A stretch of DNA of 63,983 nt, filler included, from Dimargaris cristalligena (Eukaryota): assembly GCA_003614675.1 (NCBI GenBank). It is 17 parts of 17 records of this genome, joined end to end, with 100 filler letters (N's around TTAATTAATTAA, not from the genome) between each part and the next. Parts side by side here need not be neighbours in the genome. Positions count along the whole stretch, not along the records: positions 19,288 to 23,017 come from ML003884.1; 16 more parts are not named here. One strand, 5' to 3'. The notes beneath the pieces are model-generated. The model did not search any database. It was not told where the DNA came from and saw nothing but the letters and a program-made list of their open reading frames with translations. The translations under genes and the position numbers were made by a program. Position 1 is the first letter of the stretch, and the number at the start of each line of letters is the position of its first letter. Positions 20,490 through 23,017 of this stretch are shown here, one piece after another.

Positions 20490-23017
20490 GCACGAGGTCG
20501 CTTCGCTTACGGAACTAAACCAAGGGAGCCGCCTGTGGCCGTCTCGGGTAGCACGTTAATAATTCAGGCTGCTCGGTTGAATGCACGACGTCGCTTCGCT
20601 TACCAACACCGCTATAAAGAGCCACCTGTGGGTGTCTCAGCAGACCTCTTAATACTAGACTTCTAATCACAAGGATCCTACTAATTATTGCTGCACGGTG
20701 ATCTTGAGGATGATAACTCCGCTGGGTAACCTGTTGATCCCGATGTCGATTCTGATGATCATGAAGGGACGATTCCGCTACTGATCTGACGGGTTGCTTC
20801 GCTTACCACTTCATCCCGATTGTTGAGACAGCCACAGCTGGCTCCTTGGTGGTGGTGTCGCTGATCAAAGTGTCGCTTCGCTTATCAACCCTCGTTACAT
20901 TGAGCCGCCTATGGCCGTCTCAGGTAATTCGTTATTAATCACTGCTGCACTTGTTGAGACAGCCACAGCTGGCTCCTATGATGGTGATACTGCCCGAGGT
21001 CGCTTCGTTTACTGCTGATGGCCGCGATTCTGTTGATAGTGAGGGTGACTCTTGATTCACATTCGCTCGGCATCACCAATAGGTTGAGCCAGCTCGTGGC
21101 TGTCTCAAGTAACCTGATAATCATCGCGGTAGGTTGGTGACTCATGCTGATTTAGATTGACGTTGCACGGTGGATTAACTCAATGTCGCTTCGCTTACCA
21201 ATGACGATCGGTGGAGCCGCCTGTGGCCGTCTCGGGTTATTTACTAAACTAATTTTGCTTGAGACAGCCACAGCTGGCTCCCTTGGCTGATGACGGTTCC
21301 TACGTAGATGACAACTAACCCATGATGGAGTCGCTCCGCTTGATACCCCTGAAGGAAGGAGCCGCCTATGGCCGTCTCAGGTAGTTCAACTAGATCATGG
21401 TTGAAGGTGTTGAGACAGCCACAGCTGGCTCCTTTGGTGGTGATGTCCTTCCTATCATTCATAATCACTGCTGCACGGTTGATGATGACGATGTCGCTTA
21501 CCATCCCTATTGCAGGGAGCCACCTCGTGGGTGTCTCAGGTTTATTAATAATTACCGCTGCACGGTTGAATCATTGATGATTCACATGTCGATCCGCTTA
21601 CTGATCACTACGGAAGGATCCGTCTCGGGTTGGTTAACGTTGAGACAGCCACAGCTGGCTCCTTTGTCGGTTAATCCTATTAATTCTTGCTGCATGAGTC
21701 ACAGGTGAGCCCTTGTTTAACCCTGGACTGGTGATGACTTGGCTTCCTGTTGGCCCATGCTGAGCCCTGATGTTGAGACAGCCACAGCCGGCTCCTTGTT
21801 AGTCCGCTTTGCTTACTGATCATGGTTGTATGGAGCCGGCTGTTCCCGTCTCGGGAGATCCGATCGTCTAATAATCGACTCTGCAGGGAGCCACCTCGTG
21901 GGTGTCTCAGGACCTACTATTAATTATTGCTGCACGGTTTCATGTCACTACTGGACTGCCCTAACCAATGGGAGCCAGCTGTGGCTGTCTCGGATAACAT
22001 GATAGTCATTGTTGAACAGGTGGGTAACTCATGATGCAAGATGTCGCTTCGCTTACTAAGTTCGATGTCAACTAACGAGCTCCGCGTTTATAGTATCACT
22101 CACATGGAGCCGCCTGTGGCCGTCTCGGGTAGTGCTATGGATCACCGCTGCACCGATTATGAATCTAAGAGGTCGCTTACTGATCAGTGCAGCAGTGAGC
22201 CACCTCGTGTATGTCTCAGCTAGTTCATTAATAATTCAGGCTGCAGGTTGATGAATAATCCTTGCTGCGGTTGATGAACCCCTTGTTGGTCATGATGACG
22301 ATTCTGTTGACGTTGATGTTGATAATAATCCTTGCTGCACGGTTGAACTTGATGATAATGATGATCATGTTGATGACGATCATGACGTTGGTGATGATGT
22401 TGATCTTGATGATAACGTCCTTAGTAATCCTTGCTGCGGTTGATGATGAAGATGTTGACGTTGATCATGATGAAGGTTGCAGGTTGTTGATGTGGATTCG
22501 GATAACGATGAGGGTGTTGATGATGTTGATCATGACGGTGTTGATCTTGATGTTGATGATCATGACGTTGACGATGATGACCATCATGATGGTGATGATC
22601 ATGATGATGATGTCGCTTTGCTCACCATCAACGATGACAAGGAGCCGCCTGTGGCCGTCTCGGGTTGATTAAAGATCATCGCTGCAGGTTGAACAGGATA
22701 TTCATGTCGCTACGCTTACCAACACCATTACAAGGAGCCGCCTGTGGCCGTCTCAGACTAATTAATCATAATCCTTGACACACCGTTTCCTATTGATGAA
22801 TAACTAATCCTCGCTGCAGGGAGCCACCTTGTGGGTGTCTCAGGTGGCGATCTGTTAATCACCGGTGCTCGTGAGACAGCCACAGCTGGCTCCCTTGGGG
22901 ATGAGGTTGATCATGTTGATGAAGACGCTGGTTATTGATAGCAATGTCGCTTTGCTTACCATGATGACGGCTGTGTTGAGCCGACTCTTGGCCGTCTCGG
23001 GTTGAACCAGCACTGAT
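20490..23017. repeat. Modular array of three spaced motifs (A GTCGCTTCGCTTAC; B GGAGCCRSCT(C)GTGGSYGTCTC; C TAAT..GCTGCACGGTTG), with B in both orientations
   Basis: Forward B at about 20525, 20619, 20902, 21086, 21213, 21358, 21515, 21832, 21886, 21970, 22106, 22197, 22641, 22734, 22819 and 22978, plus a truncated copy at about 21617. Reverse B (GAGACAGCCACAGCTGGCTCC) at about 20823, 20954, 21259, 21410, 21640, 21773 and 22872. A at about 20497, 20590, 20793, 20872, 20999, 21185, 22043, 22612, 22706 and 22946, among others. Confidence 0.95.
22254..22612. repeat. GAT/GTT/CAT trinucleotide-based low-complexity tract inside the array
   Basis: GATGATCATGACGTTG-type units, with three embedded TAATCCTTGCTGC(AC)GGTTGA motif-C copies. 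Confidence 0.85.

What the first reader, a model, noticed from the sequence alone, without database searches (positions are those of the whole stretch)
20823..22893. Motif B occurs in both orientations and often as convergent inverted pairs
Seen in sequence: seven reverse copies (GAGACAGCCACAGCTGGCTCC, nearly invariant) lie among about 16 forward copies. Five of them follow a forward B within about 10-35 nt (20902/20954, 21213/21259, 21358/21410, 21617/21640, 22819/22872), which would give long fold-backs. A and C were seen only in the forward orientation. Inference: B moves or inverts independently of the unit, like a REP/REPIN doublet, a mini-MITE or a shufflon-type inversion site. The reverse copies are more homogeneous than the forward ones, which suggests a recent burst.
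Basis: partly seen in the sequence, partly recalled or inferred. Interest (0 to 1): 0.75.

Follow-up and report, generated by a model that had tools for sequence, protein, structure and literature searches.

The report
Flipped hairpin boxes in fungal array
In a gene-free repeat array from a fungal genome assembly, one small hairpin box really occurs in both orientations, but the flipped copies are a fixed extra module spread by recombination, not a DNA switch or a proven jumping element.

Summary
In detail: 16 forward and 7 reverse copies of box B. Four full convergent pairs lie 27-34 nt apart; the fifth partner is a half-site. The contig is one of seven non-coding contigs (27.8 kb) of a Dimargaritales-like assembly, built from polar ~93-bp A-B-C units with 191 B boxes. 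B is a covarying 20-21-bp hairpin. Reverse copies are mostly one subtype (57 of 67) with their own flanks, and 28 of 67 sit 15-35 nt behind a forward B. Not a shufflon: 0 of 118 A/C boxes between opposed B boxes are flipped. Not a REPIN doublet or MITE: the forward partner keeps its ordinary unit context, and no TSD, empty site or RAYT was found. A recent burst is weakly supported at best. Contigs from three studies repeat several pairs, so an amplification chimera is unlikely. Best reading: a reverse sub-module spread by recombination and conversion between B boxes in a conserved-box mosaic repeat. Function and owner are unresolved. This scan already noted the same family on sibling contigs.

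The parts
19288..23017 (.). Whole contig (G000:C1677, 3730 bp, GC 0.53) between N-linkers; non-coding
   Evidence: longest stop-free frame 175 aa under the standard code; no Pfam family for the four ORFs tested; no Rfam match at gathering score
19850..20050 (+). Shared 'end sequence' that points into the array; relatives at both ends of C1219 (inverted to each other), and in C1840, C2087 and C1338
   Evidence: 69% over query 563-734; 89% over 54 nt; outer boundary not sharp
20341..20405 (+). GC-rich hairpin module shared with C1840 (86%) and C1219 (77%)
20497..22998 (+). Polar mosaic array of ~93-bp units: A (13 bp, 12 copies), 16-17 nt, forward B (16 copies, several subtypes), 18-22 nt, C (TGCA core); spacers diverged
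20825..20844 (-). Reverse B (subtype B3), 19 nt after an A box, unpaired
20902..20975 (.). Convergent pair: forward B1 variant, 34-nt spacer with the start of C, reverse B3 (20956-20975)
21214..21280 (.). Convergent pair: forward B1, 27-nt spacer, reverse B3 (21261-21280)
   Evidence: spanned without differences by contigs of runs X4 and X5
21359..21431 (.). Convergent pair: forward B1 variant, 33-nt spacer, reverse B3 (21412-21431)
21620..21661 (.). 3' half-site of B (21620-21626), about 15 nt, then reverse B3 (21642-21661)
   Evidence: spanned by a contig of run X4
21775..21794 (-). Reverse B, one-base variant, unpaired
   Evidence: bridged by contigs of X1, X4 and X5
21972..21991 (+). Exact B3 in forward orientation: the 'reverse' sequence also occurs forward
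22260..22612 (+). GAT-rich low-complexity expansion inside the array, with no B
22821..22892 (.). Convergent pair: forward B2 variant, 31-nt spacer, reverse B3 (22873-22892); its flanks are 90% like C1338:384-454
   Evidence: spanned by a contig of run X6 with 1 difference

Best explanation
SHOWN: B is a 20-21-bp quasi-palindrome (on one strand GAGAC-RSC-loop-GSY-GGCTC, an 8-pair stem with one fixed mismatch). Its 'orientation' is set only by that mismatch and the loop. It is one of three conserved boxes in an old, polar, ~93-bp-unit mosaic repeat spread over at least seven gene-free contigs. The reverse copies form a distinct ~29-bp sub-module: mostly subtype B3, with its own 3-nt left and 6-nt right flank words. 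It sits at variable places, most often 15-35 nt behind a forward B, where it cuts the normal spacer or C box short. DNA between opposed boxes is never flipped. INFERRED: the B3 variant was inverted once or a few times, and the reverse module then spread by homologous recombination, template switching and short-tract gene conversion between B boxes. These act as crossover hubs in an array whose spacers are otherwise too diverged to recombine. Conversion within fold-backs explains subtype swaps and symmetric hybrids. The boxes are most likely kept because proteins read them, as inverted sites or as single-strand hairpins. Among functions, a centromere-type or origin-type loading array is my pick (about 0.3), ahead of foldback-transposon arms (about 0.2) and a gene-less extrachromosomal replicon (about 0.2).
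For: Subtype bias: B3 is 57 of 67 reverse vs 25 of 124 forward, p 1.7e-18. Flanks follow orientation, not subtype: forward B3 has the forward flank in 11 of 25, reverse B3 in 2 of 57; reverse non-B3 has the reverse flank in 5 of 10, forward non-B3 in 0 of 99. Short forward-reverse gaps: 28 of 52 vs a permuted mean of 8.8 and maximum of 20 in 5000. 25 of 28 such spacers start like the ordinary post-B spacer. A 151-bp, 99% identical duplication in C1338 begins and ends at the edges of two reverse B copies. Left and right flanks of reverse B3 assort independently (8.8 vs 8.9 after re-pairing) yet share short words above a column-shuffled null (8.8 vs 7.2, maximum 7.8 of 200). Four symmetric hybrid boxes. 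Partners in 27 of 28 pairs differ in sequence. Stem pairs 6 and 7, which the search did not constrain, covary: 45 and 29 of 49 distinct sequences vs shuffled means 23.7 and 19.3, reached by 0 of 5000 shuffles.
Against: No recombination event was observed directly. The clean B-bounded duplication is a single case and could be an assembly product. Recombination alone does not explain why reverse B prefers a window 15-35 nt behind forward B, and only 14 of 28 pairs keep a recognisable start of C. The covariation rests on three or four related subtypes, and the shuffle ignores relatedness. Only 27.8 kb is assembled, while run contigs show further units, so empty sites may lie in unassembled DNA. 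No evidence of function was obtained. The owner is uncertain: two 5.8S rRNA types and two cox1 sets are in the assembly.
Confidence: 0.58

Rival explanations
1. Reverse B3 is a true non-autonomous mobile hairpin of about 29 bp, like yeast mitochondrial GC42 or a REP singlet. An enzyme encoded elsewhere inserts it without a TSD and with a preference for sites just behind a forward B.
For: One dominant subtype (47 of 57 identical), own flank words, variable positions, and truncation of the host unit. Conserved stem with a variable loop, as reported for GC42 (PMC4478555, passages). Modest excess of shared flank words.
Against: Never seen outside the arrays (84 of 84 hits on 7 of 2220 contigs). 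No TSD (mean best repeat 3.35 vs 3.36 shuffled, n=65). No empty site (6.55 vs 6.51 mismatches in the control). The rest of the interrupted unit does not resume at a fixed distance (reverse B to next A, 9-406 nt). No Y1 transposase hit.
Confidence: 0.17
2. The reverse copies are a selected fourth slot of a functional grammar: inverted pairs about three helical turns apart make cruciforms or dimer sites, for example for kinetochore loading or two-way priming. How they arose matters less than their retention.
For: Gap cluster at 23-35 nt. Fold-back is the predicted minimum in 55 of 58. The more stable B hairpin (-5.2 to -5.8 vs -2.8 to -4.2 kcal/mol) lies on the bottom strand for forward B and on the top strand for reverse B. 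A keeps a GCGNAGC core in 106 of 119 copies. Precedents for conserved boxes at centromeres: PMC8097292, PMC7292649 (passages).
Against: 39 of 67 reverse copies are not in short pairs, and paired copies are no more conserved. Gaps vary from 15 to 35 nt. There are no binding or chromatin data.
Confidence: 0.15
3. Local fold-back replication or amplification chimeras made each reverse copy from its neighbouring forward B.
For: Short loops of 15-35 nt and stable predicted fold-backs. One pair has identical partners and one near-perfect symmetric pair exists in C1840.
Against: A fold-back copy should equal its partner, yet 27 of 28 differ and 21 of 28 are B1-B3 or B2-B3. Contigs from three studies carry the same junctions with 0-1 differences. 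Library types are not on record, and pairs 20902/20956 and 21359/21412 are not spanned by any listed piece.
Confidence: 0.05
4. Shufflon-type site-specific inversion between opposed B boxes, or a REPIN-like doublet that moves as a unit.
For: B has two arms around an asymmetric core, as recombinase sites do (recalled). The assembly has 13 tyrosine-recombinase-domain hits. C1957 shows one polarity switch. Inverted doublets are over-represented.
Against: 0 of 118 A/C boxes between opposed B boxes are reversed, and a strand-word marker follows array polarity in 43 vs 3 and 43 vs 5 segments. No A or B box in the four recombinase loci examined, of 13. The doublet's left half is an ordinary unit. The C1957 switch lies between two B boxes that point the same way; its far end may be off the contig.
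Confidence: 0.05

Closest known systems
Meloidogyne CenH3-associated tandem repeats with a conserved 19-bp box (PMC8097292; 12 of 27 matched passages seen)
   Same: Different monomers share one GC-rich box with dyad structure (-5.4 kcal/mol there, -5.2 to -5.8 here); mosaic arrays; under-represented in assemblies.
   Different: Three boxes at fixed spacing plus a reverse sub-module; units are not homogenised (TRF finds no ~93-bp array); no CenH3 evidence; fungus, not nematode.
Saccharomyces mitochondrial GC clusters, GC42 (PMC4478555; 12 of 44 passages seen)
   Same: Short GC-rich hairpin with a constrained stem and variable loop; recombination among copies; merging and shuffling of units; co-conversion of flanks proposed.
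   Different: GC42 has AG target nucleotides and presence/absence among strains; B shows no TSD and no empty site. B is absent from the cox1- and nad-bearing contigs, and the array is about 49% GC, not AT-rich.
Bacterial REP / REPIN elements with RAYT (PMC3116915; 12 of 45 passages seen)
   Same: About 20-bp imperfect palindromes, over-represented inverted doublets, predicted single-strand fold-backs.
   Different: Doublets are not dispersed, not more conserved than singlets, and not symmetric; there are no genes around; no Y1 transposase hit; matches in prokaryote genomes are 7 lone single hits.
Foldback / Tetris-type non-autonomous transposons (PMC4079207; 12 of 19 passages seen)
   Same: Gene-less, kb-long, inward-pointing shared end sequences, internal repeats; C1957 has opposed arms.
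   Different: The interior is mostly one polarity rather than mirror arms; no sharp terminus or 8-10-bp TSD could be defined; the repeats are diverged units with boxes, not similar tandem copies.
Candida tropicalis centromeric inverted repeats with a 12-bp IR-motif (PMC7292649; 12 of 14 passages seen)
   Same: A short motif clustered only in a few gene-free loci and oriented relative to the locus.
   Different: No central core flanked by homogenised inverted repeats is shown here; three boxes; chromosomal position unknown.

Membership tests
Shufflon-type inversion system (features recalled, no call) | Segments between inverted sites occur in both orientations | tested here: not met
   0 of 118 A/C boxes reversed between opposed B boxes, after flipping C1219 and the second part of C1957 to array polarity
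Shufflon-type inversion system (features recalled, no call) | Linked tyrosine recombinase gene and coding cassettes | tested here: not met
   No stop-free frame of 150 aa or more on 6 of 7 contigs under the standard code, one of 175 aa on this contig; all 13 integrase-domain hits lie on other contigs, and the 4 examined lack A and B
REPIN (PMC3116915) | Inverted doublets over-represented and predicted to form hairpins | tested here: met
   28 vs a permuted mean of 8.8; fold-back in 55 of 58
REPIN (PMC3116915) | Doublet is the replicative unit: dispersed, more conserved than singlets | tested here: not met
   Confined to arrays; modal share paired vs unpaired 22 of 28 vs 29 of 39 (reverse) and 16 of 28 vs 50 of 96 (forward); A upstream unchanged
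REPIN (PMC3116915) | Associated RAYT (Y1 HUH transposase) | tested here: not met
   PF01797: 0 matches in G000, control rings in 6 of 14 genomes; an incomplete assembly does not prove absence
MITE / small mobile hairpin (GC42-like) | Target-site duplication or fixed target nucleotides | tested here: not met
   n=65 reverse copies: best repeat 3.35 vs 3.36 nt shuffled; best fixed-offset excess 3 vs 0.5 among 252 settings scanned
MITE / small mobile hairpin (GC42-like) | Filled and empty alleles or paralogous empty sites | tested here: inconclusive
   None in 27.8 kb; run contigs show none among listed rows but are near-identical DNA and drop rare variants
MITE / small mobile hairpin (GC42-like) | Hairpin under structural constraint | tested here: met
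   Pairs 6 and 7 covary and pair 8 holds in 187 of 191; few independent changes
Mitochondrial GC cluster / double-hairpin element | Located in the mitochondrial genome | tested here: not met
   No B hit on C55, C182, C1020 or C1319; those loci are 19-27% GC and lack A and B. An unlinked mitochondrial molecule is not excluded
Foldback transposon (Tetris type) | Long TIRs with internal repeats | tested here: inconclusive
   Inward-pointing end sequences on five contigs, but a mostly single-polarity interior and a blurred outer edge
Foldback transposon (Tetris type) | 8-10-bp TSD around a complete copy | not testable with these tools
   No contig holds both outer flanks
Centromeric conserved-box repeat | Conserved dyad box shared by diverged monomers in gene-free arrays | tested here: met
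   191 B boxes in 27.8 kb
Centromeric conserved-box repeat | CenH3 or kinetochore binding; one locus per chromosome | not testable with these tools
   No chromatin data and no chromosome-level assembly

The most novel reading that the evidence does not exclude
The arrays are a single-strand-read cis-element of an undescribed kind: either the centromere of a Zoopagomycota fungus or a gene-less extrachromosomal replicon. One strand carries a GNA mini-hairpin (A; GCGNAGC 111 times on that strand vs 5 on the other) exactly 16-17 nt from a mismatch-bearing stem-loop (B). A ~29-bp B3 module homes without a TSD just behind forward boxes and puts the same stem-loop on the opposite strand, giving two-way priming or loading sites.
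Probability: 0.15. Interest if true: 0.75.

Novelty: new variant of a known kind. Interest (0 to 1): 0.38.

Why it matters
If the best reading holds, this is an undescribed conserved-box mosaic repeat in an early-diverging fungus in which a 20-bp hairpin serves as the recombination hub. That interests people who work on satellites and centromeres, but the kind is familiar. It would matter more if the arrays were the centromeres of this lineage (my one search on centromeres of early-diverging fungi listed Mucorales work and nothing on this group) or a gene-less replicon; both can be tested with long reads and ChIP. The two-orientation pattern itself is not a programmed switch.

Tried and rejected
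Hidden protein under another code: no long frame under tables 1, 3, 4, 6, 16 or 22. Table 6 covers 88% of the window, but about 82% is expected by chance from losing two stops (my estimate, no call). Micro-exon gene on the minus strand with A as the 5' splice site: GT is present in only 57 of 113 copies. Mitochondrial intergenic DNA, my first favourite: no B on cox1 or nad contigs. rDNA spacer: no A or B on C1293, or on the first 10 kb of 12 kb of C850. RNA families: none at gathering score; 8 sub-threshold hits on the seven contigs, the best a miRNA model on a symmetric pair. tRNAs: 0. Viral contigs: 0 hits for two patterns. Metagenomes: 3 lone hits without A. Prokaryote genomes: 7 single hits. 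Phages: none. Plasmids: one hit on the GAT-rich part. No RNA holder listed among sequencing runs. The left flank of C1840 matches nothing else in the assembly, so no link to a chromosome was found. Joints: 15 of 723 shown, all motif-length skips; strand changes among the rest were not seen. Print searches (listings only) showed no description of this array; supplements were not read.
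Full report
Setting. The window is not one molecule. It is a string of 17 contigs of about 3.7 kb joined by N-linkers. The finding lies on contig 19288-23017 (G000:C1677, GC 0.53). A COG4 fragment on another contig hits Dimargaris (47%) and Coemansia, so the assembly is a Dimargaritales-like fungus of 30.65 Mb in 2220 contigs. It also holds two different 5.8S rRNAs and two cox1 sets, one with in-frame TGA and one without, so DNA of a second fungus is present. Such mycoparasites are grown with a host fungus (PMC6784888, passages and the strain section seen). 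The contig has no long frame under six codes, no Pfam family for its four tested ORFs and no Rfam or tRNA match.

Check of the observation. Defining B as GAGCC-N10/11-GTCTC with at most one arm mismatch gives 16 forward and 7 reverse copies. The reverse ones lie at 20825, 20956, 21261, 21412, 21642, 21775 and 22873, and six are identical. No shuffle of the window gives a match. The five named pairs have gaps of 34, 27, 33, about 15 and 31 nt, but the 21617 partner is a half-site. Four full pairs within 35 nt exceed the 1.1 expected from permuted labels (p 0.008). A is forward in 12 of 12. The C hexamer is forward 15 times and reverse twice. Fold-backs are predicted.

The family. All 84 genome-wide matches to B3 at up to two mismatches fall on seven contigs: C1219, C1338, C1677, C1840, C1933, C1957 and C2087. 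A broader pattern gave 143 matches; the 100 listed are on five of these contigs and 43 were not listed. Of 65 exact A boxes, 64 are on these contigs; the other, on C283, has no B nearby. I fetched all seven (27.8 kb) and turned them to one polarity, flipping C1219 and splitting C1957 at 1620 where its polarity switches. This gives 124 forward and 67 reverse B and 119 A, all forward. The unit is A, 16-17 nt, B (67 of 124 forward B), 18-22 nt, C, with a period peak at 91-98 bp. A shared end sequence (window about 19850-20050) points into the arrays on five contigs and stands inverted at the two ends of C1219. Its outer edge is blurred. CpG observed/expected is 0.70-0.85 in the arrays, against 0.09-0.51 in 9 of the other 16 window contigs, so they escaped the decay seen in other DNA of this assembly.

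What B is. B is a quasi-palindrome with an 8-pair stem and one fixed mismatch (pair 4 is C/T in 186 of 191). Pair 6 is A-T in 116 and G-C in 71. Pair 7 is G-C in 88, C-G in 35 and mismatched in 68. Pair 8 holds in 187. Pairs 1-5 are biased by the search definition; pairs 6-8 are not. Among 49 distinct sequences, pairs 6 and 7 exceed all 5000 shuffles, though they rest on a few related subtypes. Orientation is therefore defined only by the mismatch and the loop. The hairpin is more stable on the strand that reads GAGAC first (-5.2 to -5.8 vs -2.8 to -4.2 kcal/mol). On the bottom strand A contains GCGNAGC in 106 of 119 copies, with the loop N the most variable position (19 changes). Such heptamers are known as very stable DNA mini-hairpins at phage origins and the N4 promoter (PMC13037366, 12 of 18 passages). 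Most of those changes are transitions, so this is suggestive only.

What the reverse copies are. They are mostly subtype B3 (57 of 67, against 25 of 124 forward; p 1.7e-18). They carry their own flank words of about 3 nt on the left and 6 nt on the right, beyond which information falls to near background. Flanks follow orientation, not subtype. Reverse copies do not take B's slot after A (4 of 67). Instead 28 of 52 forward-reverse neighbours lie within 35 nt, against a permuted mean of 8.8 and a maximum of 20. In 25 of these 28 the spacer begins like the ordinary post-B spacer, and 14 keep the start of C. So the reverse module cuts a normal unit short. What follows it does not resume the unit at a fixed distance.

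Shufflon: 40 of 40 A/C boxes between forward-reverse neighbours and 78 of 78 between reverse-forward neighbours keep array polarity. The one polarity switch, in C1957, lies between two B boxes pointing the same way; a large inversion with its other end off the contig is not excluded. Thirteen tyrosine-recombinase-domain hits exist on other contigs; the four loci examined have no boxes. REPIN: doublets are over-represented, but in PMC3116915 (12 of 45 passages) the doublet is dispersed and more conserved than singlets. Here neither holds, the forward partner keeps A upstream as often as other forward B (17 of 28 vs 55 of 96), and no Y1 transposase was found. MITE: no TSD in 65 reverse copies and no empty site above control. 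Recent burst: the modal share is somewhat higher in reverse B3 (47 of 57) than in forward subtypes (p 0.03-0.09), but one-off variants do not differ (9 of 67 vs 25 of 124, p 0.32). Boxes are conserved throughout while spacers are saturated, so sameness does not date the copies. Reverse B3 does share slightly longer flank words than a null (8.8 vs 7.2 nt, after dropping three members of known duplications), which allows some younger spread.

Artefact test. Contigs of four runs from three studies were laid on the contig (library types not on record). X4 and X5 span the 21214/21261 pair with no difference. X6 spans 22821/22873 with one difference. X4 spans the half-site pair. X1, X4 and X5 bridge the copy at 21775. 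The pairs 20902/20956 and 21359/21412 are not spanned by any listed piece (9540 pieces not shown). Random chimeras would not recur this way, and a local fold-back would make partners identical, which 27 of 28 are not. The runs hold near-identical DNA, two of them under other organism labels, so they test reproducibility, not population variation, and leave the owner open. They also show units missing from the assembly. Unique parts lie at depth 1200-1900 in X1 and 2.5-11 in X5, similar for flank and array; without a genome-wide baseline I cannot call this high copy.

Mechanism. Signs of exchange centre on B. A 151-bp, 99% identical duplication in C1338 starts and ends at two reverse copies. 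A 55-bp tandem duplication in C1957 carries a forward B3. Left and right flanks of reverse B3 assort independently. Four boxes have two like arms. Three short pairs have B3 forward and another subtype reverse, with orientation-type flanks kept. I infer that B3 was inverted once or a few times and that the reverse module spread by recombination, template switching and short conversion between B boxes (0.58). A truly mobile hairpin with a target preference (0.17) and a selected inverted-pair grammar (0.15) remain. The preferred 15-35-nt window is not explained by recombination alone.

Comparison and novelty. Oriented motif clusters also mark Candida centromeres (PMC7292649), and inward-pointing ends recall foldback elements (PMC4079207). 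It is not a member of the shufflon, REPIN or mitochondrial GC-cluster families by the tests above; foldback and centromere membership cannot be tested here. Shufflon and MITE features are recalled, not from a call. No array-like match was found in viral, metagenome, prokaryote, phage or plasmid collections, and search listings showed no description (supplements unread). Earlier notes of this scan describe four sibling contigs; they are leads, not support. Verdict: real, an undescribed variant of a known kind; the orientation pattern is a static mosaic, not a switch. Interest 0.38.

Noticed in passing
window, all linkers (e.g. 23018-23117): The window is 17 separate contigs sorted by length and joined by N44-TTAATTAATTAA-N44, so neighbours are not linked.
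   Followed up: yes
G000:C1293 and C850; C55/C182 and C1020/C1319: Two unlike 5.8S rRNAs and two sets of mitochondrial genes (TGA-using and not): a second fungus is in the assembly.
   Followed up: partly
A boxes, e.g. window 20497-20509, minus strand: A contains a GCGNAGC mini-hairpin core: 111 such heptamers on one strand vs 5 on the other in 27.8 kb, and 9 in the other 60 kb of the window.
   Followed up: partly
L063:3008-3037 / L064:1-30: C1840 and C1933 overlap by 30 nt and probably form one 5.7-kb array.
   Followed up: partly
L062:2400-3100: In C1338 the array is interrupted by an inverted end sequence and a hub with a further short motif in inverted repeats, shared at 78% with the start of C2087; the array then resumes in the same polarity.
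   Followed up: partly
L061:1485-1520, 3575-3610, 4920-4955, 6130-6160; L063:2910-2945: A further recurring GC-rich hairpin module with varying stems lies among the units (read by eye).
   Followed up: no
window 19447: Runs X1 and X4 read G at full depth where the assembly has C; X5 shows no other letter at depth 2.5. Possibly two haplotypes or an amplification error.
   Followed up: no
window 22262-22672 (+): 136-codon Asp/His/Val-rich open frame over the GAT-rich stretch; no Pfam family; probably a by-product of low complexity.
   Followed up: partly
window 30748-34446 and 57198-60855: Contigs with almost no CpG (observed/expected 0.09 and 0.11), unlike the arrays.
   Followed up: no
L106:1447-3426 (-): Open frame of over 659 aa with a C-terminal tyrosine-recombinase domain, one of 13 such hits; could be a Crypton- or DIRS-type element (labels recalled).
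   Followed up: partly
L002:1-13 and L102: The first 13 nt of C1957 also occur upstream in the rDNA contig C850; too short to be a join, probably chance.
   Followed up: no
window 7349-7492; 16511-16993; 26886-29051; 63120-63983: A 9-bp repeat in 16 copies; and DUF6540, PPR and COG4_C matches on other contigs.
   Followed up: no
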